Assembly: GCA_031425235.1 (NCBI GenBank)
Contig: JANPIZ010000006.1
Coordinates: 30,803-94,802 of the forward strand
DNA: 64,000 bases
Source of the DNA: Candidatus Nomurabacteria bacterium
Lineage (GTDB): Bacteria; Patescibacteriota; Minisyncoccia; Phycocordibacterales; UBA9973
Direction of reading: 5' to 3'
Below, in pieces: positions 22,252-58,065 of the stretch. Position 1 is the stretch's first letter; every line of letters begins with the position of its first letter. Position numbers and translations under genes: made by a program. The notes under the pieces are model-generated. The model did not search any database, was not told where the DNA came from, and saw only the letters and a list, made by a program, of their open reading frames with translations.

Positions 22252-23961
22252 TTATGATCTGTTTATTTCCTTATAAACTTCAATGATTGGTTCAGGAATA
22301 TCTTCGACCCTGATATTTGCAGTGGAATATTCTCCTTTGTATTCGTTTTTGCCCCAACTGAATATATATAAAGCTGTCGGTATATTTTTCTTTTCCAACT
22401 TGGCGATCAGCTCGGCGAGTTTAGTTTTGTCTTCCTTGAAATATATAGCCATCTGTTTGCCCTTACCTTCAAATATTTGCCACCAATCGTTCTTTTCTAC
22501 TTCATTGAGTACATCCTCACGCACAGCAATCATTTCGCCTGCTTGGTAGGTGATTTTGATTTTTGCTTCATCGGAGACTTTATGAATTTGCTCGATGTCT
22601 ACGAGGTCAGTTTTGTAGTAGGAAAGGTTACTTGGTATACCTGCAACTTTTTCGTTTTTCTTGTTTTTGTATCCTTTGATAACCGCTTTTATTCTTGGAT
22701 AACAAACTGACTCCGCTATTCCACCCTTTCCATCATTGTTGTTCTCGTTATTAGTGCAGACAATAAACTTACGGTTACCGCCATCAATTTTATTCATTTC
22801 CAAAACAGCATGTCCTGTCGTTCCAGAGCCAGCGAAAAAGTCCAGAACAGTTGCGTTAGGTCTATGACCGACCACGGCAAACAAACAGTCATAAACTGTG
22901 TAGAGAGATTTCGGAAAATCAAAATCACAATTTGGCAAAATCTCTCTCAAAAGTTTTGTTCCAAAAATATTGGCATTATATTTTCCATCCGTCCAAACAG
23001 TTTTGTAGTTGAACATTGTTTTTGTCCTAACAATATCGAGAATTTTTCTGTTTCTATTTTCTACTACTGCCAGCTCATCCTTGATACTCTCCACGGTTTG
23101 GCGAGCAAAAACCCACTTTCTTTCATTGCCACTTGGGTCAATAGGGTAAATCTCTGTTACCCCGTCTTTACGTATTACATTCGCTGATTTCGGATGGAAA
23201 GAGTCAGGACTCACATCACCAAAACCAATAATCTTTCCGTCTTTTACAAAAATTGGATAGAAACAGTTTTTTGCATCTTCTCGCAAATGATTTCCCGTTG
23301 AAACATCACGCAATGGTCTAATATCTGGATTGTCTGTCCTGTCCTGTAACCCAATTAGCGTTTTATTCTTTGGCACTAAAAATATGGCGTATTCGTGCGT
23401 GGAGTGGAAGTTATTTCCTTGCGTACCTCCAGGGTTATGAATGATTGTAATTGGGTACTGGTCGTAATTAGGAAAAATCTGCTCTATCAAAACACTTAAA
23501 TGAGCTTGCTCATTATCGTCAATTGCACAAATAAGCACACCGTCATCTTTTAGTAAGTTTTTCGCCAGATTTAGGCGGTGACGCATGAAAGAAAGCCACT
23601 TGCTGTGTCGATACTCATCATCCCCATCTACATAGTCATTATTATATTTCCAGTTTCTAGCGCCAGTATTGTATGGAGGATCTATGTAGATGACATCAAT
23701 ATTCTTTTTGTGAGTGTAGTTGAGAACTGAAAGCGCAAGGTAATTATCACCCTCAATCATCAAGTTGTTTGGATATATCTCACCCAAATCAAGTTGGTTT
23801 TTTGTGACTTCTTTCAGAACTGGTACTTGAGTTTTTGATTTCTCAACAACTTCTTCCGTCTTATCCTCAAAAACAAGCCCCAGATTATTTTTTTGGAGTT
23901 TTCTGATTTGGGACTGCAAGTCCGCAATTTGTGTTTTCATTTCCTGTTCTGACATAATCAT
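22252..23961 (-). CDS. mod: Type III R-M Mod subunit (N6-adenine/N4-cytosine beta-class DNA methyltransferase)
   Basis: Motif IV DPPY (IYIDPPYNTG) preceding motif I FxGxG (DFFAGSGTTGHAV): beta-class order typical of Type III Mod. Confidence 0.8.
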   Translation of the reverse strand: MIMSEQEMKTQIADLQSQIRKLQKNNLGLVFEDKTEEVVEKSKTQVPVLKEVTKNQLDLGEIYPNNLMIEGDNYLALSVLNYTHKKNIDVIYIDPPYNTGARNWKYNNDYVDGDDEYRHSKWLSFMRHRLNLAKNLLKDDGVLICAIDDNEQAHLSVLIEQIFPNYDQYPITIIHNPGGTQGNNFHSTHEYAIFLVPKNKTLIGLQDRTDNPDIRPLRDVSTGNHLREDAKNCFYPIFVKDGKIIGFGDVSPDSFHPKSANVIRKDGVTEIYPIDPSGNERKWVFARQTVESIKDELAVVENRNRKILDIVRTKTMFNYKTVWTDGKYNANIFGTKLLREILPNCDFDFPKSLYTVYDCLFAVVGHRPNATVLDFFAGSGTTGHAVLEMNKIDGGNRKFIVCTNNENNNDGKGGIAESVCYPRIKAVIKGYKNKKNEKVAGIPSNLSYYKTDLVDIEQIHKVSDEAKIKITYQAGEMIAVREDVLNEVEKNDWWQIFEGKGKQMAIYFKEDKTKLAELIAKLEKKNIPTALYIFSWGKNEYKGEYSTANIRVEDIPEPIIEVYKEINRS

Positions 23962-24146
23962 TTTTTCTTTTGCTTTTTGATGTTAGAACGTGAATCAATA
24001 AAGCGTTGAAGATCACTCTTTTCGACTCTCCAGTATCGAATTTTTGTCGCACGAAGTTGTTTACTGTGTATATATCGATACACAGAACGTTCACCAACGC
24101 CCAACTCTTTTACCACTTCCTGTAATGTCAGAAATGTCTTCTTCAT
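23958..24146 (-). CDS. excisionase-family HTH DNA-binding protein (possible controller/Xis)
   Basis: 62 aa; LTLQEVVKELGVGERSVYRYIHSKQLRATKI matches MerR/excisionase-type HTH_17; 4-nt overlap with mod start. Confidence 0.6.
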   Translation of the reverse strand: MKKTFLTLQEVVKELGVGERSVYRYIHSKQLRATKIRYWRVEKSDLQRFIDSRSNIKKQKKK

Positions 24147-24209
24147 GGATAATCACAGTTTAGCAATTTGGAGTCAGAATGGCAATTTGTGTCATGTTTG
24201 ATTTTTAGC

Positions 24210-24218
24210 TGTGGATAA
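24210..24218 (-). promoter_or_regulatory. perfect DnaA box (TGTGGATAA)
   Basis: Exact 9-mer consensus immediately upstream of iteron-like repeats. Confidence 0.45.
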
Positions 24219-24220
24219 CT

Positions 24221-24260
24221 CTTTGTATCTATTTGTATCTAGTTATATCTATTTATATCT
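24221..24260. repeat. four tandem 10-bp iteron-like direct repeats (consensus ATTTRTATCT)
   Basis: cTTTGTATCT ATTTGTATCT AGTTATATCT ATTTATATCT with exact 10-bp phasing. Confidence 0.7.
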
Positions 24261-24289
24261 CTTACCATAGACATATTTTTATAAAACAA

Positions 24290-24475
24290 ATATCATTAAG
24301 TTATCCCAGGGTGAGGCGATAACTTCATGAATCACCCCATGCTTTCGTAAGACAAAGCATCGCGTCGGGCGAAGGGAAACCCGCTAGGTAGGAACCATTG
24401 AGAAGCTACCATTTCACCTCACTTTTTTGTGAGATGCGATGGTAGCTTTTTTAGCTCTCAAAGCATCCAACAAAA
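24290..24475. promoter_or_regulatory. three consecutive hairpins in divergent intergenic region (putative origin/control region)
   Basis: AGTTATC-(12)-GATAACT; ATGCTTT-(8)-AAAGCAT; AAGCTACCAT-(~30, with inner CCTCAC/GTGAG stem)-ATGGTAGCTT followed by TTTTT. Confidence 0.4.
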
Positions 24476-24568
24476 AGTCTGGCGATAAATCCCTGGAATT
24501 TGCGAAGCCCGTTGCTGGCTTTGTAGGTCGCCTTCCAGGGATACCTACCAAGCCAATAGCGGGCTTTT

Positions 24569-24763
24569 ATGTTGAGCACAGAAGCACTACAAGAATTCAA
24601 AGAAATATGGAAGCAAGAATTTGGAGAAGAAATCTCTGATGAATTCGTTATGGACGAAGCAGTAAATTTGCTCACCATGTTCAATGCTATCTATCGCCCA
24701 ATCAAAGAAGAATGGCTATCAGAAATAAATTATGAAAGAACAACAGAAACCAAGACCTTATAA
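24569..24763 (+). CDS. small hypothetical protein
   Basis: 64-aa ORF, acidic; overlaps start of next gene by 32 nt. Confidence 0.3.
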   Translation: MLSTEALQEFKEIWKQEFGEEISDEFVMDEAVNLLTMFNAIYRPIKEEWLSEINYERTTETKTL

Positions 24764-25532
24764 CACATTGCCTCGCTTTCTTGCGGAGGATTATTTGGAT
24801 AAAAAACTCACTCGAAGTGAACTCATTTTACTTCTATGGCTACGCTCAATTGCAGATATATTTGGTGTAACTACAACCAGTGCATCAACGCTTCGAGATG
24901 ACATGTTCCCTGGTGTTGAAGTAAATACAGTTGAAAAACTTCTGCTGTCAGCAAAGAAGAAAGGTTACATTGATTATCCAAATCACCAGGGACGCAGAGG
25001 CTCCATCCGAATTCAATCAGACGAATGGCTTATAAGAGGCAAGGGTGTTTTAAGAATTACAAAACTCTCCAATCCTAGTGAAGTCATAAGCGTACCCCAA
25101 AACACAGGTGAATCTGAAGCAGAAGTAAATCATAAGTTAGGTGTTGTAAATCAGAAGTTTATTGAGCAAAAGAATCAATTAACTCAAAGGTTTTCTATAG
25201 TTCCAACCGACCATGCAATCACAAGTCACCATAACGAACACGAATATGAAAATAAGAAAGAGAATGATACATCTGGATCGACTTTTAAGGGAACGTTAGT
25301 AAATGACTTTAATCCAACGAACGGTGAGGGAATACGACTGAAAGAGGTAGCTTTGGAAATCGGTGAAGAAAACATAAATACTTTATTAAACGAATCACGA
25401 AAACCACGAGGGATGTGGGTTATTGAAAAAGCCTTCGAAATATACGAACGCGATAAGAAAGACGGTAAACGTATATCGAATCCGCCTGCTTATTTGATGG
25501 GCGTAATTAAAAAGATCAGAGCAAAGATATGA
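24732..25532 (+). CDS. putative winged-helix replication/regulatory protein (Rep-like)
   Basis: N-terminal helix-turn-helix-like segment (TRSELILLLWLRSIADIFG…), downstream of iteron/DnaA-box region; assignment tentative. Confidence 0.35.
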   Translation: MKEQQKPRPYNTLPRFLAEDYLDKKLTRSELILLLWLRSIADIFGVTTTSASTLRDDMFPGVEVNTVEKLLLSAKKKGYIDYPNHQGRRGSIRIQSDEWLIRGKGVLRITKLSNPSEVISVPQNTGESEAEVNHKLGVVNQKFIEQKNQLTQRFSIVPTDHAITSHHNEHEYENKKENDTSGSTFKGTLVNDFNPTNGEGIRLKEVALEIGEENINTLLNESRKPRGMWVIEKAFEIYERDKKDGKRISNPPAYLMGVIKKIRAKI

Positions 25533-25936
25533 AAATGTATATTCACAGTTATCAGCTTGTCAGGTTTTGTCAGGATGCTATAATTACTATGCGTCCTACA
25601 AGTCAGAGTATATGCACAGGGTATTTGCCTTTTTATGGCTCCAGATGTGAGCAAAGAGGGGCGACTATCCTCCGCATCTGGTTGCCTTGTGCAATTCAGA
25701 CTTGTGGGACGCAGGCTCTGGTCGTCCCTCTTTTCTATTATGGGGACGCCAATAAATGCATGGCAACCCCACAAGACAACAAAAAGAAAATAAGTCCGTG
25801 GATATATTTCCTCGGCATAGCTTTCCCAATAATTTTAATCCTAAAAGGGCTGGAAGATTTTTTCCCTTTCATTACTACCGAATGGTTCTTTGTAATTGCC
25901 TTCCTCATATTTTTTATAATCATCGGCAGAAAATAA
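25529..25936 (+). CDS. hypothetical protein with C-terminal hydrophobic helices (ORF may be partly spurious over a structured region)
   Basis: 135-aa ORF; Cys-rich N-terminus overlies GC-rich segment with long-range complementarity. Confidence 0.3.
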   Translation: MKMYIHSYQLVRFCQDAIITMRPTSQSICTGYLPFYGSRCEQRGATILRIWLPCAIQTCGTQALVVPLFYYGDANKCMATPQDNKKKISPWIYFLGIAFPIILILKGLEDFFPFITTEWFFVIAFLIFFIIIGRK

Positions 25937-25937
25937 T

Positions 25938-27641
25938 ATGACACCAAAAAACCAACCATTAAAATATATTGCTTACACTCGTAAGAGTACTGTTGGGGAA
26001 GACAGGCAGATGCTTTCTCACGAAGACCAGGAGGCAGATTTGAAACGAATGGAAGAGAATGAGCACTTGGATGTGGTGGAGAGACATACAGGAAAAGAAA
26101 AAGGTGAAAGCCAATCAGCTCATAAACGTGGACGACCTATCTTTTCTCATGCAATGAAACAGATTGAAGCTGGCAAAGCGAATGCCTTGCTGGTGTGGCA
26201 CCCTAACCGCCTTGCTCGTAATGCTTTTGATGGTGGCTGGATAATTACAGCTATGGACGAGGGTAAACTGCTTGAAGTAAAAACAGCCAACGGCACTTAT
26301 CGCAATACTTCTAATGACAAGTTTATGCTCCAGTTGGAGTTTGGTATGGCGAAGAAGTCGTCGGATGATAACGGCGATGCTGTGAAGCGTGGTATTAAAA
26401 CAAAACTCGCAATGGGATGGTATCCAGGCTTCGCAACGCTGGGTTACTTAAACACAAAAAACTTTGAAGAAAAGGGTCAGAACAAAATCCTTAATGACCC
26501 AGAAAGATTTGATACAGTGAAGCAGATGTGGCAAATGATGCTGACAGGAAATTATACTCCTCCACAGATACTGGAAATCGCAACAAAAGAATGGAACTTA
26601 AAGACACGAGAAACGAAAAGAAATCCTTCAAAATATCTCTGTCGCTCAACGATCTATAAGATTTTTCACAATCCTTTTTATTCAGGTTGGTATGAATATC
26701 CAAAAGGCAGTGGTGAGTGGCACAGAGGTAAACACGAGCCAATGGTAAGTGAAGAAGAATATCAACACGTGCAAGCTCTGCTGGGTAACAAGACAAGACC
26801 ACGACCACTTGCCCGCAGATTCGCATTCACTGGGATTATGCACTGTGGTAATTGTGGAGCTTCAATTACAGCAGAGGAAAAAATCAAAAGACAAAAGAAT
26901 GGAAACGTTCACCGCTATATTTATTATCGATGCACGAAACGCATTGATGAGAAGTGTCCTCAAAAAACTATCGAGCTTTCACTACTCGCTCAACAAGCAG
27001 ACCTCATCATTCAAGGTCTAACTATCTCTGACAGATTCAAAGACTGGGCAATAAAATATCTCCACGAAGTACGACAGAACGAAGCGCAGAGCAACGAGCA
27101 GGTTCTCGCAAAGAAACAGACTCGTTTACTAGAGATAACCAAACAATTAGACAATCTTCTACTTCGCCTCACGTCGCCTTCTAACGCTGACGGAGGATTG
27201 ATTAGCGACTCTGAATACAAGAGCGCCAAAGGAACTCTCTTGAAGGAAAAGAACGCCCTGGAAGCTGATCTACAGGCACAAGGTAAAGCTATAGAGCGCT
27301 GGCTAGAATTGAGCGAGCGAACATTCAACTTCGCACGTTACGCGAGCCTCTGGTTCCTTAAAGGCGACCTGGAGACGAAGAGAGCCATCTTTGCATGTCT
27401 AGGTTCGGACTTCATCCTCAAAGACCAAAAACTCAATATAACGCTTCATAAACCATTCAAATTCATCTTCGATAACCTCGAAGAAATAGAAAAAGAATTG
27501 GTTGAGGTTAGAACCTCTGAAAACCAAACAAACACAAGACAAAAGGTTTCTTTTGTCTCTAACAATCTACTAGGGCGGAGGCGGAGAGATTCGAACTCTC
27601 GATACCTTTCGGTATGCCACCTTTCCAAGGTGGTGGAATAA
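25938..27641 (+). CDS. large serine recombinase (integrase)
   Basis: N-terminal resolvase domain (YTRKST… catalytic Ser, …LLVWHPNRLARN), recombinase domain, Zn ribbon (CGNCG…YRCTKR…C), C-terminal coiled coil; ORF 3' end reads across the tRNA on the other strand. Confidence 0.8.
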   Translation: MTPKNQPLKYIAYTRKSTVGEDRQMLSHEDQEADLKRMEENEHLDVVERHTGKEKGESQSAHKRGRPIFSHAMKQIEAGKANALLVWHPNRLARNAFDGGWIITAMDEGKLLEVKTANGTYRNTSNDKFMLQLEFGMAKKSSDDNGDAVKRGIKTKLAMGWYPGFATLGYLNTKNFEEKGQNKILNDPERFDTVKQMWQMMLTGNYTPPQILEIATKEWNLKTRETKRNPSKYLCRSTIYKIFHNPFYSGWYEYPKGSGEWHRGKHEPMVSEEEYQHVQALLGNKTRPRPLARRFAFTGIMHCGNCGASITAEEKIKRQKNGNVHRYIYYRCTKRIDEKCPQKTIELSLLAQQADLIIQGLTISDRFKDWAIKYLHEVRQNEAQSNEQVLAKKQTRLLEITKQLDNLLLRLTSPSNADGGLISDSEYKSAKGTLLKEKNALEADLQAQGKAIERWLELSERTFNFARYASLWFLKGDLETKRAIFACLGSDFILKDQKLNITLHKPFKFIFDNLEEIEKELVEVRTSENQTNTRQKVSFVSNNLLGRRRRDSNSRYLSVCHLSKVVE

Positions 27642-27659
27642 ACCGCTATCCGACGCCTC
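27575..27659 (-). tRNA. tRNA-Ser (anticodon GGA), class II with long variable arm
   Basis: Acceptor GGAGGCG/CGCCUCC, anticodon stem CCACC/GGUGG with loop UUGGAAA, variable arm AUACC-GAAA-GGUAU, T-arm GAGAG-UUCGAAU-CUCUC, discriminator G. Confidence 0.8.
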
Positions 27660-27731
27660 CGTGCTCTTTTAATTTACAGTATTTTCAAAAAAAAGCTAGA
27701 AAAAGAAAGCAGGGAATGTTACAATTCAAGC

Positions 27732-56731: not shown

Positions 56732-56986
56732 ATGTTTTATTACACGTATATCTTAAAAAGTAAGAAAGACGGTAAAATCTACACTGGTTATACAAAAGAC
56801 CTACGGAAGCGCCTTATGCAACATAACAAAGGTTTATCTACATATACAAAAGGTAGAGGCCCATTTATTTTGATATACTACGAAGCGTGTTTATTGGAAA
56901 GTAAAGCAAAGTCGAGAGAGGAATTTTTAAAATCGGGAATGGGCAAGCGTTATTTAAAAAATAGATTAGGCGCTTCCTATCTCTAA
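56732..56986 (+). CDS. GIY-YIG nuclease-family small protein
   Basis: YYTYILKSKKDGKIYTGYTKDLRKRLMQHN matches GIY-YIG motif. Confidence 0.7.
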   Translation: MFYYTYILKSKKDGKIYTGYTKDLRKRLMQHNKGLSTYTKGRGPFILIYYEACLLESKAKSREEFLKSGMGKRYLKNRLGASYL

Positions 56987-56990
56987 CGGG

Positions 56991-57689
56991 ATGAGATTTC
57001 ATATAATTACAATTTTTCCAGAGATGTTTGACTCTTATCTACAGGAGTCTATTCTCGGGCGGGCGCTGGGGAATAAATACCGACGTAAAGTTGAGGATGC
57101 GCGATCTAAAGGATCGGCAAAGATTTCAGTGAAATTTTATAATCCGATAAGCTTTTGCAAACCAAAAGAGCGTGTGGATGCTCGGCCTTATGGAGGTGGT
57201 CCAGGGATGGTCTTGCGCCCAGAATTTTTTCTCAAAGCATTTTCGAAGATAAAGATCAAAGATAAAAAGAAGACAAAAGTAATTTTATTTTCTACCTCCG
57301 GTAAAAAATTTGAAACAGCGTATGCAAAAAAATTGGTAAAACAAAAGTATACAGATATCATTTTAATTTCTGGTCGCTATGAAGGCATAGATGCTCGCGT
57401 GCAGAAAATTCTCAAAGCTCAGGAAATATCAATAGGGGATTATGTGCTCACGGGCGGTGAATTACCGGCGATGATATTAATAGATTCTATTTCACGCCAA
57501 ATCCCTGGAGTTCTTGGAAAATATGAGTCCCTCGAAGAGGAAAGAGTGTCGACAAGCGAAGTATATACAAGGCCTGAAATTCTAAAGTATAAAAATAAAA
57601 ACTACAAAGTTCCAAAAGTTTTACTCTCTGGGAATCATAAACTTATTGAAGACTGGAAAATAAAAAACAAAAAACCTAACGAATCTTAA
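56991..57689 (+). CDS. trmD: tRNA (guanine37-N1)-methyltransferase TrmD
   Basis: MRFHIITIFPEMF…, DARPYGGGPGMV, SPOUT knot motifs; basic insertion before the Gly-rich loop. Confidence 0.85.
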   Translation: MRFHIITIFPEMFDSYLQESILGRALGNKYRRKVEDARSKGSAKISVKFYNPISFCKPKERVDARPYGGGPGMVLRPEFFLKAFSKIKIKDKKKTKVILFSTSGKKFETAYAKKLVKQKYTDIILISGRYEGIDARVQKILKAQEISIGDYVLTGGELPAMILIDSISRQIPGVLGKYESLEEERVSTSEVYTRPEILKYKNKNYKVPKVLLSGNHKLIEDWKIKNKKPNES

Positions 57690-57729
57690 TTCATTAGGTT
57701 TTCTAAATATTTTTCTTTTAATAGACATT

Positions 57730-58065
57730 TTAAATGTCTTCATCAAACATTTTTTGTACATTTATATAGAAAAATTCAGTGCATTTAGAGCAAAGCGGTT
57801 TTCCATTTAACTTAAAATCAGCAACTTTTTTTTGAATAATTTTACCTGTATCACTGTTTAGTTCGATGGACTCAAAACCATCGGCAACGATTTCGGTAAG
57901 AATTTCCTGAAAAAGGACACTATATTTTAAATCTTTTCCACATTTTCCACATTTGTGTGGAGTAGCTATTTCCTCCCCAACTTCAGTTGTTAAGTAAATT
58001 GTTAAGTCCCTAGAGTTAAATTTCACACTATAGGGAGTGCTGCAGCCATCATTCGTAAAGTCCAT
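57730..58065 (-). CDS. hypothetical zinc-ribbon protein
   Basis: CGKCGK…CSKC Cys pairs. Confidence 0.4.
   Translation of the reverse strand: MDFTNDGCSTPYSVKFNSRDLTIYLTTEVGEEIATPHKCGKCGKDLKYSVLFQEILTEIVADGFESIELNSDTGKIIQKKVADFKLNGKPLCSKCTEFFYINVQKMFDEDI

What the first reader, a model, noticed from the sequence alone, without database searches (positions are those of the whole stretch)
24147..24475. Origin-like control region: DnaA box followed by four phased 10-bp iterons and three stem-loops between divergent genes
A perfect TGTGGATAA lies at 24210-24218. It is immediately followed by cTTTGTATCT, ATTTGTATCT, AGTTATATCT and ATTTATATCT at 24221-24260, in exact helical phasing. An AT-rich stretch comes next, then three sizeable inverted repeats. 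The last of these is a 10-bp stem, AAGCTACCAT/ATGGTAGCTT, with a T-run after it. This layout of DnaA box, iterons, an AT-rich stretch and structured elements resembles theta-replicon origins and Rep autoregulatory operators. It sits between the HTH/R-M operon and the Rep-like gene.
Basis: seen in the sequence. Interest (0 to 1): 0.6.

Follow-up and report, generated by a model that had tools for sequence, protein, structure and literature searches.

The report
Control hub of an integrated island
The flagged stretch is the regulatory hub of an ~8.7-kb mobile island sitting next to a tRNA gene: two back-to-back promoters, a conserved binding site for the host replication protein DnaA, a row of phased 10-bp repeats, and the start of a heavily folded leader RNA that gates the island's replication-initiator-like and integrase genes; whether it also works as a replication origin remains unproven.

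Summary
The sequence features are real. TGTGGATAA lies at 24210-24218. Four 10-bp tandem repeats at 24221-24260 are the strongest tandem repeat in the window. The inverted repeats are also present.

The region lies inside an ~8.75-kb serine-recombinase island (18850-27601) integrated at tRNA-Ser. In all eight distinct related elements found, probably from candidate-phyla-radiation (CPR) bacteria, the same layout recurs:
- A leftward promoter for a small Xis-like HTH_17 gene.
- Exactly one perfect DnaA box, flipped in one element.
- Three to seven phased ~10-bp repeats of variable sequence.
- A conserved sigma-70-type promoter.
- A ~270-nt structured leader.

The first stem-loop is not conserved. 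Just outside the given coordinates lies a covariation-supported pseudoknot (24481-24566) that abuts the first start codon. Rfam has no match.

The downstream 266-aa protein does belong to a family related to phage replication initiators. However, a sister subfamily keeps that gene while lacking the box, repeats and RNAs. No plasmid-state evidence was found.

Best reading: a promoter/operator switch plus attenuating leader. Its function as an origin is possible but unshown.

The parts
18850..19120 (.). Conserved non-coding left end of the island (attL side). It starts with a remnant resembling a tRNA 3' end (GGCGGAGG...) and holds TGTATC/TAGTAC units like the iterons.
   Evidence: 88% identity to the L001 left end although the cargo differs. 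The motif GGTGGTGGGTGTTTT is shared with L001, L004 and L014. TGTATCTAG occurs only at 18955 and 24234 in the window. There are 6 shared 7-mers with the iteron array, P = 0.005.
23958..24146 (-). 62-aa HTH_17 / excisionase-family (Xis/BldC-like) winged-helix gene. It is the first gene of the leftward operon, followed by the type III-like methylase, the Res subunit and a 280-aa ORF.
   Evidence: Pfam HTH_17 E = 4.5e-14. PHROG excisionase/regulator and TIGR01764. A profile of 8 orthologues hits Pukovnik Xis 4J2N, E = 0.003.
24157..24194 (-). Leftward promoter P_L: -35 TTGCCA (24185-24180), 17 bp, -10 TAAACT (24162-24157). It lies within the conserved motif TGGCAA-N4-TGTCA (24180-24194).
   Evidence: Found by the promoter scan. 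The same TTGCCA/T-17-TAAACT/TAAAAT/TAGAAT/TAAGCT layout can be read in the 7 relatives that carry the HTH_17 gene (sequences). The motif is also present in the DUF5659 subfamily.
24210..24218 (-). Perfect DnaA-box 9-mer (TTATCCACA on the minus strand).
   Evidence: Perfect in 8 of 8 distinct control regions, essentially once per element, and inverted in L258. It sits 22-24 bp from the P_L -35 in all (read). It is absent from the DUF5659 subfamily.
24221..24270 (+). Four 10-bp direct repeats (cTTTGTATCT, ATTTGTATCT, AGTTATATCT, ATTTATATCT) plus a degenerate fifth unit that runs into the -35 of P_R.
   Evidence: TRF score 57. Autocorrelation peaks at lags 10 and 20 in all four class-A loci. The array is in a fixed register with the -35 in class A, and the unit number varies with box-to-promoter distances of 39-84 bp.
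24268..24296 (+). Rightward promoter P_R: TAGACA-17-TATCAT (10 of 12 matches). It lies in the most AT-rich stretch of the region (22% GC).
   Evidence: A T(T)GACn-17/18-TAyAAT/TATCAT promoter sits at the same place in all 8 loci. The transcription start (~24303) is inferred, not shown.
24293..24330 (.). First inverted repeat of the finding (13-nt arms). It overlaps the -10 and the inferred start site. It is specific to this lineage and not conserved.
   Evidence: I11; -13.2 kcal/mol. The 3' arm is an insertion absent from L004 and L258. The pair is broken in L001.
24303..24452 (+). Leader RNA part 1 ('RNA-1A').
- H1: 24309-14/24332-37.
- H2: 24339-46/24353-60.
- H3: 24366-69/24380-83.
- Terminator hairpin H4: 24400-24451, with U6 at 24447-52.
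   Evidence: RNAalifold on 5 distinct sequences gives 4 pairs with compensatory changes. G.U pairs occur only on the plus strand. H4 folds at -27.8 kcal/mol, z = -7.2. No Rfam match. Three relatives carry an unrelated hairpin/terminator leader here instead.
24481..24568 (+). Leader RNA part 2 ('RNA-2'), outside the finding's coordinates.
- Helix P1: 24491-98 with 24533-40.
- Helix P2: 24505-28 with 24543-66, interleaved with P1 (pseudoknot topology).
- It ends 2 nt before the ATG at 24569.
   Evidence: On 6 distinct sequences, 97% of cells are paired and 9 of 28 pairs show changes on both sides. 0 of 500 shuffles reach this, and slid controls give at most 2. The plus strand folds 8 kcal/mol better than the minus strand. 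nhmmer finds it only in this element family.
24569..24763 (+). Conserved 64-aa acidic ORF. It is the first gene of the rightward operon and overlaps the next gene.
   Evidence: Conserved at the protein level in all relatives, including the DUF5659 subfamily. No family match.
24732..25532 (+). 266-aa protein with an N-terminal winged helix, a disordered linker and a C-terminal helical bundle. It belongs to a family related to phage replication initiators.
   Evidence: AF2 model. Its winged helix matches MarR/Fur-type folds. BFVD hits over the full length are replisome organizers and replication initiators, E down to 1.6e-5. Of 59 family members, 10 hit PHROG 'replication initiation protein' and 9 hit 'O-like' families. 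The family has 383 clusters.
25938..27641 (+). Large serine recombinase whose 3' end overlaps tRNA-Ser(gga) (27573-27661, minus strand). This marks the right end of the island (~27601).
   Evidence: Pfam Resolvase, Recombinase and Zn_ribbon_recom. tRNA. The same overlap with tRNA genes occurs in L001, L009, L010 and L014. Homology to L001 ends at 27601.

Best explanation
The region is the genetic switch of a small integrative island; it is not primarily an origin.

- Two promoters fire back to back. P_L drives the Xis-like HTH_17 gene and the restriction-modification cargo. P_R drives a ~270-nt leader followed by the 64-aa ORF, the replication-initiator-like 266-aa gene and, further on, the serine integrase.
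- The phased 10-bp repeats sit from about -40 to -90 of P_R, in register with its -35. I take them to be an operator array on which a small winged-helix protein multimerises head to tail, one protomer per helical turn, to set P_R activity. The adjacent HTH_17 protein is the likeliest binder. P2 Cox, 186 Apl, RdfS and BldC work this way.
- The conserved DnaA box, 22-24 bp upstream of the P_L -35, gives host DnaA access to the switch.
- Transcripts from P_R must pass an intrinsic terminator (24400-24452). They must then open or remodel a pseudoknotted structure that ends 2 nt before the first start codon. Expression of the initiator-like and integrase genes is therefore gated at the RNA level.

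Shown:
- Conservation of the two promoters, the box, the phased array, the terminator and the pseudoknot.
- Family assignment of the proteins.

Inferred:
- Who binds the repeats.
- The sign of regulation.
- The transcription start.
- That the RNA structures attenuate expression.
For: - Both promoters are conserved with 17-18 bp spacers in all relatives.
- The array abuts and is in register with the P_R -35. The unit number varies while the phase is kept.
- HTH_17 is Xis/BldC-family. This family binds variable numbers of ~9-bp direct repeats head to tail, about one DNA turn per protomer, with low sequence specificity. It binds both at promoters and next to att sites (PMC5859096, PMC11963761).
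- Similar units recur on the same strand in the att-proximal left end.
- H4 is a strong hairpin followed by U6 on the plus strand only.
- RNA-2 has 9 covarying pairs, and its G.U pairs fit only the plus strand.
- The whole box + repeat + RNA module is swapped for two protein genes (a 210-236-aa ORF and a DUF5659 protein) in a sister subfamily that keeps the 64-aa, 266-aa and integrase genes. This is what one expects of a regulatory module rather than of an origin.
Against: - L006 keeps the box and the repeats but has no HTH_17 gene.
- The DUF5659 subfamily has HTH_17 but no repeats.
- The HTH_17 recognition helix is nearly invariant while the repeat sequence differs between classes.
- The presence of the repeats correlates perfectly only with the DnaA box and the RNAs.
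- The switch model does not need a perfectly conserved DnaA box.
- The operon does encode a replication-initiator-like protein.
- No transcript or binding data exist.
- Only 8 distinct sequences could be compared.
Confidence: 0.45

Rival explanations
1. It is the vegetative origin (oriV) and Rep-autoregulatory operator of an integrative replicon. After excision by the serine recombinase, the 266-aa O-like/DnaD-like initiator binds the repeats and host DnaA binds the adjacent box. The AT-rich stretch 24260-24300 then melts. The same binding autoregulates P_R, as in P1 oriR/incC. The left-end repeat cluster would be a second, control array, like P1 incA or P4 crr.
For: - A perfect DnaA box is conserved in 8 of 8 elements and is orientation-independent.
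- The repeats are followed by the most AT-rich 60-90 bp of the region, 22% GC.
- The 266-aa family is related to phage replication initiators.
- The gene lies in the operon driven from this region, as with rep-xis-int operons of actinomycete integrative elements.
- There is a second cluster of similar units at the left end.
Against: - The units are 10 bp long and degenerate, not 17-22 bp.
- The helix-turn-helix and wing of the 266-aa protein are almost invariant across loci whose repeats differ.
- L258's protein is closest to L015's (82%), yet their repeat classes differ.
- The DUF5659 subfamily keeps the initiator-like gene without box or repeats.
- AT-richness is marked only in class A and coincides with a promoter spacer.
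- No helicase or primase gene is present.
- No circular contigs were found, and there are no plasmid or phage relatives.
- GC skew is uninformative at this scale.
Confidence: 0.3
2. The repeats are an array of weak DnaA boxes nucleated by the strong box, like the low-affinity site arrays of E. coli oriC. ATP-DnaA would then spread towards P_R and couple island gene expression, or unwinding, to the host's replication state. No island-encoded binder would be needed.
For: - The presence of the repeats correlates perfectly with the DnaA box: 8 of 8 with it and 0 of 5 without.
- In the four class-B relatives the units read TGnATAR, matching TGTGNATAA at 6-7 of 8 positions. They have the same orientation as the strong box and sit at 10-bp multiples. 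Pooled, there are 8 sites against 2.2 expected, P = 0.002.
- L006 keeps the array without HTH_17.
Against: - In the window and the other class-A loci the units match the box at only 3-5 of 8 positions.
- The strong box is flipped in L258 while the array is not.
- The pooled P value treats homologous loci as independent.
- The period is 10 bp rather than the 11 bp of oriC arrays.
- Similar units at the left end have no strong box nearby.
Confidence: 0.12
3. It is nothing more than two ordinary divergent promoters. On this view the repeats are incidental, for example phased T-tracts giving curved upstream DNA, and the box is a chance match.
For: - Both promoters are clear.
- The window's units carry phased T-tracts.
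- A single box is not unusual in this genome.
Against: - The 9-mer is perfectly conserved where its flanks are not, in 8 of 8 elements.
- Repeats without T-tracts occupy the same place in relatives.
- The leader structures covary.
Confidence: 0.08

Closest known systems
P2 Cox / phage 186 Apl / ICEMlSymR7A RdfS switch regions (multimerising winged-helix recombination directionality factors)
   Same: - A small Xis-fold protein is encoded at a divergent-promoter switch.
- Arrays of degenerate direct repeats are spaced about one helical turn apart.
- Arrays occur both at the promoter region and near the att site.
- Primary-sequence conservation of the sites is low (PMC11963761).
   Different: - Those systems use tyrosine integrases; this island has a large serine recombinase, for which DNA-binding directionality factors are not the rule.
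- Here there is also a conserved DnaA box and a long structured leader.
- Binding has not been tested.
- One relative has the array without the gene.
BldC of Streptomyces (HTH_17, head-to-tail multimers on direct repeats)
   Same: - It belongs to the same Pfam family.
- Its recognition logic is an AT-rich 4-mer + N4 + C per unit (AATTxxxxC). The window's units read ATTTGTATC and ATTTATATC.
- The number of repeats is variable.
   Different: - BldC is a chromosomal developmental regulator with 9-bp units; here the units are 10 bp and sit in a mobile element.
- Sequence similarity to BldC itself was not detected. Only Pukovnik Xis was hit, E = 0.003.
Iteron origins with DnaA boxes (P1 oriR/incC, pSC101, RK2 oriV) and island replicons (SaPI ori, SGI1 oriV/rep)
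   Same: - The order is DnaA box, direct repeats, AT-rich stretch, then the initiator gene.
- The promoter of the initiator operon is embedded next to the repeats, as in P1.
- The island is integrative and carries an initiator-like gene.
   Different: - The units are 10 bp and degenerate.
- The initiator has one winged helix rather than the two of RepE/pi-type Reps.
- No replication evidence exists.
- The module is dispensable in a sister subfamily.
Leader attenuation in mobile-element control regions (pIP501/pT181 rep leaders, pCF10 prgQ, P4 immunity leader)
   Same: - A long leader carries an intrinsic terminator between the promoter and the rep/int-type genes.
- A small DNA-binding regulator gene lies next to it.
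   Different: - No antisense promoter was found in the leader.
- The second element is a pseudoknot abutting the start codon.
- There is no sequence or Rfam relationship.
Phage lambda O-like / DnaD-like replication initiators ('replisome organizers')
   Same: - The architecture is an N-terminal winged helix, a flexible linker and a C-terminal helical domain.
- There are PHROG and BFVD matches.
   Different: - The window protein itself hits no PHROG. It matches Pfam only weakly (HTH_36, E = 0.004, below the cutoff).
- No iterons lie inside the gene, unlike lambda ori.

Membership tests
Iteron-type theta origin (oriV) | Tandem iterons of roughly 17-22 bp that co-vary with their cognate Rep protein | tested here: not met
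   The units are 10 bp. The winged-helix reading elements of the 266-aa protein are nearly invariant while the repeats differ. L258 and L015 have 82% identical domains but different repeat classes.
Iteron-type theta origin (oriV) | Host DnaA box(es) next to the iterons | tested here: met
   A perfect TTATCCACA is present in 8 of 8 related control regions.
Iteron-type theta origin (oriV) | AT-rich unwinding element adjacent to the repeats | tested here: inconclusive
   GC is 22% at 24220-24309. However, this stretch is the spacer of a conserved promoter, and class-B relatives are not notably AT-rich there.
Iteron-type theta origin (oriV) | Supports autonomous replication / extrachromosomal copies exist | not testable with these tools
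   No circular contigs and no plasmid or phage homologues. Read depth is not available.
Iteron-type theta origin (oriV) | Origin present wherever the initiator gene is present | tested here: not met
   The DUF5659 subfamily (L010-13, L260, L262, L263) keeps the 266-aa homologue but lacks the box, the repeats and the leader.
Xis/Cox/Apl/BldC-type operator array | A small HTH_17/Xis-fold protein encoded by the element | tested here: met
   Pfam HTH_17 E = 4.5e-14, TIGR01764, PHROG excisionase. The profile hits Pukovnik Xis.
Xis/Cox/Apl/BldC-type operator array | Several direct repeats spaced about one helical turn apart, variable in number and degenerate in sequence | tested here: met
Xis/Cox/Apl/BldC-type operator array | Array and protein gene co-occur | tested here: inconclusive
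   Of 8 arrays, 7 have the gene and L006 does not. The DUF5659 subfamily has the gene without an array.
Xis/Cox/Apl/BldC-type operator array | The protein binds the repeats | not testable with these tools
   Needs EMSA or footprinting.
Intrinsic-terminator leader (attenuator) | GC-containing hairpin followed by a U-run on the transcribed strand, downstream of a promoter and upstream of the genes | tested here: met
   H4 at 24400-24451 plus U6 folds at -27.8 kcal/mol. It is conserved in 5 sequences, with G.U pairs on the plus strand only. Class-B leaders have their own hairpin plus U-run.
Intrinsic-terminator leader (attenuator) | A conserved alternative (anti-terminator) pairing or a known ligand/antisense partner | tested here: inconclusive
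   GGTAG (24388-92) could compete for CTACC of H4 and is conserved in L014, but it does not covary. No antisense promoter was found.
Any Rfam RNA family | Match to a curated covariance model | tested here: not met
   There were 0 hits at gathering thresholds in the window. In 23900-24800 only chance-level miRNA/snoRNA hits appeared, E of about 0.1 or more.
Phage replication initiator (lambda O-like / DnaD-like) | Sequence or fold similarity of the 266-aa protein to the family | tested here: met
   This holds for the family rather than the window protein alone: 10 + 9 + 2 of 59 members hit PHROG replication-initiation, O-like and DnaD-like families. BFVD fold hits reach E = 1.6e-5. The window protein itself has only a weak HTH_36 match.
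Large-serine-recombinase integrative element | LSR gene at one end, integration in a conserved target, and a variable cargo between conserved ends | tested here: met

The most novel reading that the evidence does not exclude
The island family is a previously undescribed type of integrative replicon of candidate-phyla-radiation bacteria. In this reading, a single conserved DnaA box plus a phased repeat array serves both as origin and as switch. Two or three new structured RNAs (a terminator leader, a start-codon pseudoknot and a third RNA ahead of the integrase) gate replication and excision. It would be the first defined replicon/control circuit, and a set of new RNA motifs, for this poorly understood group.
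Probability: 0.2. Interest if true: 0.75.

Novelty: new variant of a known kind. Interest (0 to 1): 0.55.

Why it matters
- Mobile elements of candidate-phyla-radiation bacteria are almost uncharacterised, and no replicon or regulatory circuit from them has been dissected.
- This region offers a compact, conserved and testable circuit. It combines a host DnaA site, a phased operator array, and covariation-supported leader RNAs absent from Rfam. Together they control an initiator-like gene and a tRNA-targeting serine integrase.
- If DnaA really feeds into the switch, the island would sense the host's replication state.
- If the region is an origin, it could seed genetic tools for organisms that currently have none.
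- The islands also carry swappable defence and resistance cargo: type I and III restriction-modification systems, an OLD-family nuclease, copper resistance and ABC transport. Their control therefore bears on the spread of defence systems.

Tried and rejected
- Rfam at gathering and permissive thresholds gave nothing real.
- The DNA-pattern scan of metagenome and viral contigs with GGCTTTGYRGG(N)TCGCC was too unspecific. It returned 240 chance loci, and nhmmer found the motif in none of them.
- The genome-contig scan returned only two loci already in hand. The viral contigs protein scan found none.
- tblastn of the 266-aa protein against plasmids and phages gave no match.
- Circular-contig test: no terminal overlaps.
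- Iterons inside the 266-aa gene, as in lambda: only a non-conserved pair at 25125/25146.
- I first read the two window/L001 differences in the first inverted repeat as compensatory. On checking, they give A.A, so I withdrew the claim.
- The idea that left-end and control arrays co-vary locus by locus is not supported. L001's array shares most k-mers with the window's left end, not with its own.
- An unbiased k-mer cluster scan for further arrays was too noisy.
- GC skew shows only the gene-orientation effect.
- The cluster of near-DnaA boxes at 56.8-58 kb is not oriC. Its flanks are trmD and rpoB.

Full report
**Observation.**
- The sequence is as described.
- TGTGGATAA lies at 24210-24218.
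- Four head-to-tail 10-bp units lie at 24221-24260. TRF gives period 10 and score 57, the top-scoring tandem repeat in the 64-kb window.
- The three inverted repeats exist.
- The stretch 24297-24575 folds much better than shuffled sequence, z = -6.2.
- A lone DnaA box is not special here. There are four perfect boxes in the window, and near-boxes are about 2x enriched overall.

**Context.**
- The region lies inside an integrated island.
- To its left, on the minus strand, are a 62-aa HTH_17/excisionase-family gene (23958-24146), an N6/N4 methylase, a type III Res-like helicase and a 280-aa ORF.
- To its right are a 64-aa ORF, a 266-aa ORF and a large serine recombinase. The recombinase's 3' end overlaps tRNA-Ser(gga) on the opposite strand.
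- Comparison with locus L001 shows two homologous blocks, 18850-19120 and 24157-27601, with unrelated cargo between them. The island therefore spans about 18850-27601.
- The flanks are chromosomal: a SET-domain gene, trmD and rpoB.

**Relatives.**
- The 266-aa protein first gave 17 homologues. A full HMM search found 383 clusters.
- Contigs encoding them share the core HTH_17(-) | control region | small ORF, 266-aa gene, variable ORF, serine recombinase(+).
- The leftward cargo is swappable: type III and type I restriction-modification systems, an ABC transporter, an OLD-family nuclease with copper resistance, and an S49 peptidase.
- The recombinase gene runs into a tRNA gene in five elements: Ser-gga, Ser-gct, Asn twice and Trp.
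- One host record is titled Candidatus Saccharibacteria. I infer a candidate-phyla-radiation host for the window but did not test it.

**Conserved anatomy of the control region.** Eight distinct control regions could be compared: window, L001, L004, L258, L006, L009, L015 and L014.
- *P_L.* It reads TTGCCA-17-TAAACT on the minus strand. It recurs with the same 17-bp spacer in the seven relatives that have the HTH_17 gene.
- *The DnaA box.*
  - The 9-mer is perfect in all eight. Each element carries a single copy, apart from one extra copy inside L006.
  - Conservation ends at the edges of the 9-mer.
  - It sits 22-24 bp from the P_L -35.
  - In L258 it is inverted in place.
  - This is hard to explain unless the 9-mer is a binding site in its own right. 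Its identity with the DnaA-box consensus makes host DnaA the obvious ligand.
- *The spacer array.*
  - Between the box and P_R lies 39-84 bp, changing in steps of roughly 10-11 bp.
  - It is filled with phased units.
  - The 10/20-bp periodicity is clear in the four 'class A' loci, including the window, and weaker in 'class B'.
  - The array runs in register into the -35.
- *P_R.* TAGACA-17-TATCAT in the window, and T(T)GACn-17/18-TAyAAT elsewhere, is conserved in all eight.

**The stem-loops are RNA.** Downstream of P_R lies a ~270-nt leader.
- *Part 1 (24303-24452).*
  - It has four helices.
  - The last helix (24400-24451, -27.8 kcal/mol) is followed by U6 and is a textbook intrinsic terminator on the plus strand only.
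  - Helices H2 and H3 show compensatory changes, and G.U pairs occur only on the plus strand.
  - Three relatives have an unrelated leader with its own terminator at this place.
- *Part 2 (24481-24566).*
  - It is shared by all eight.
  - Helix P1 (24491-98/24533-40) and helix P2 (24505-28/24543-66) interleave as a pseudoknot.
  - 97% of cells pair, and 9 of 28 pairs change on both sides. 0 of 500 shuffles and no slid control come near this.
  - P2 ends 2 nt before the ATG of the 64-aa ORF.
- Rfam has no match for either part.
- The first inverted repeat of the finding (24293-24330) is not conserved.

**Who binds the repeats?**
- HTH_17 is Xis/BldC-family.
- This family multimerises head to tail on degenerate direct repeats, about one turn apart, at promoters and next to att sites (PMC5859096, PMC11963761).
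- The window's units fit BldC's AATTxxxxC logic.
- Same-strand copies of the unit occur in the conserved left end: TGTATCTAG occurs only at 18955 and 24234, and L001's GTTCTAGTAC is found at window 18969.
- Against this:
  - L006 has the array but no HTH_17 gene.
  - A sister subfamily has HTH_17 but no array.
  - The HTH_17 recognition helix hardly varies while the repeats do.
- The same objection applies to the 266-aa protein.
- In class-B relatives the units look like weak DnaA boxes (TGnATAR), co-oriented and 10-bp phased, pooled P = 0.002. The window's own units match poorly.

**Is it an origin?**
- For:
  - The conserved DnaA box.
  - The AT-rich stretch.
  - The 266-aa family is related to phage replication initiators: PHROG replication-initiation, O-like and DnaD-like hits in 21 of 59 members, and BFVD replisome-organizer fold hits.
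- Against:
  - The repeats are short and degenerate, with no co-variation with the initiator.
  - The DUF5659 subfamily retains the initiator-like gene but replaces the box, repeats, promoter and RNAs with two protein genes.
  - There are no circular contigs and no plasmid or phage relatives.
  - There are no intragenic iterons.
  - GC skew is uninformative.

**Verdict.**
The structured elements, however, are a transcribed, attenuating leader.
- The best-supported role is a promoter/operator switch with RNA gating (0.45).
- Origin or Rep-operator function stands at 0.3, a pure DnaA array at 0.12, and plain promoters at 0.08.
- It is a new variant of known kinds of mobile-element control regions. 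The leader RNAs appear to be undescribed motifs.

Noticed in passing
window 25529-25759: - The first half of the annotated '135-aa ORF' does not look coding. Substitutions against L001, L004 and L258 spread evenly over codon positions, and indels are not multiples of three.
- It holds a conserved promoter-like TTGTCA-16-TATAAT (25557-25584).
- It also holds a long-range helix, 25590-25607/25696-25713, that keeps pairing through about 6 two-sided changes in L001/L258.
- I take it to be a third structured RNA ahead of the integrase gene.
   Followed up: partly
window 25760-25936: A conserved 58-aa hydrophobic ORF (MATPQDNKKKISPWIYFLGIAFPIILILKGLEDFFPFITTEWFF...) lies just upstream of the serine recombinase. 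It is the genuinely coding part of the '135-aa ORF'.
   Followed up: partly
window 18850-19120: The ~270-bp non-coding left end of the island is 88% identical to that of L001 despite different cargo. It contains an inverted repeat (TATACCAGGTCTGTC...GACAGTCGAACTGGTATA), iteron-like TGTATC/TAGTAC units and a motif GGTGGTGGGTGTTTT...GGGGGAYACCC that L004 and L014 also share. It could be an att arm, a second repeat array, or a terminator/RNA of the cargo operon.
   Followed up: partly
window 27573-27661 and 25938-27641; L001, L009, L010, L014: The 3' end of the serine recombinase gene overlaps a tRNA gene on the opposite strand in five elements (Ser-gga, Ser-gct, Asn twice, Trp). The island therefore supplies the 3' part of the tRNA and its terminator hairpin. 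Several related contigs break inside tRNA genes.
   Followed up: partly
L010-L013, L260, L262, L263: A sister subfamily replaces the DnaA box, repeats, P_R and both leader RNAs with a 210-236-aa ORF of unknown function plus a DUF5659 protein. It keeps the small ORF, the 266-aa gene and the recombinase.
   Followed up: partly
window 25125-25159: Two 14-nt direct repeats (GTAAATCATAAGTT / GTAAATCAGAAGTT) lie 21 bp apart in the AT-rich linker-coding part of the 266-aa gene. They are not conserved in relatives.
   Followed up: yes
window 19129-23961: The cargo operon is a type III-like methylase (569 aa), a Res helicase-nuclease (757 aa) and an unassigned 280-aa ORF. L004 carries the same cargo. 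The HTH_17 protein also gives a sub-threshold hit to the MADS defence-system HTH protein MAD1 (NF047737).
   Followed up: no
whole window; 56834-57951: DnaA-box-like 9-mers (up to 1 mismatch) are about twice as frequent as expected (36 against 18). They include tandem TTTTCCACA TTTTCCACA at 57934-57951. The neighbouring genes are trmD and rpoB, so this is not an obvious oriC.
   Followed up: partly
L004 / L016 (CAZMHV010000013.1): A 9.1-kb contig consisting almost wholly of one such island is binned in a MAG titled 'uncultured Gammaproteobacteria'. All other context points to candidate-phyla-radiation hosts, so it is probably mis-binned.
   Followed up: no
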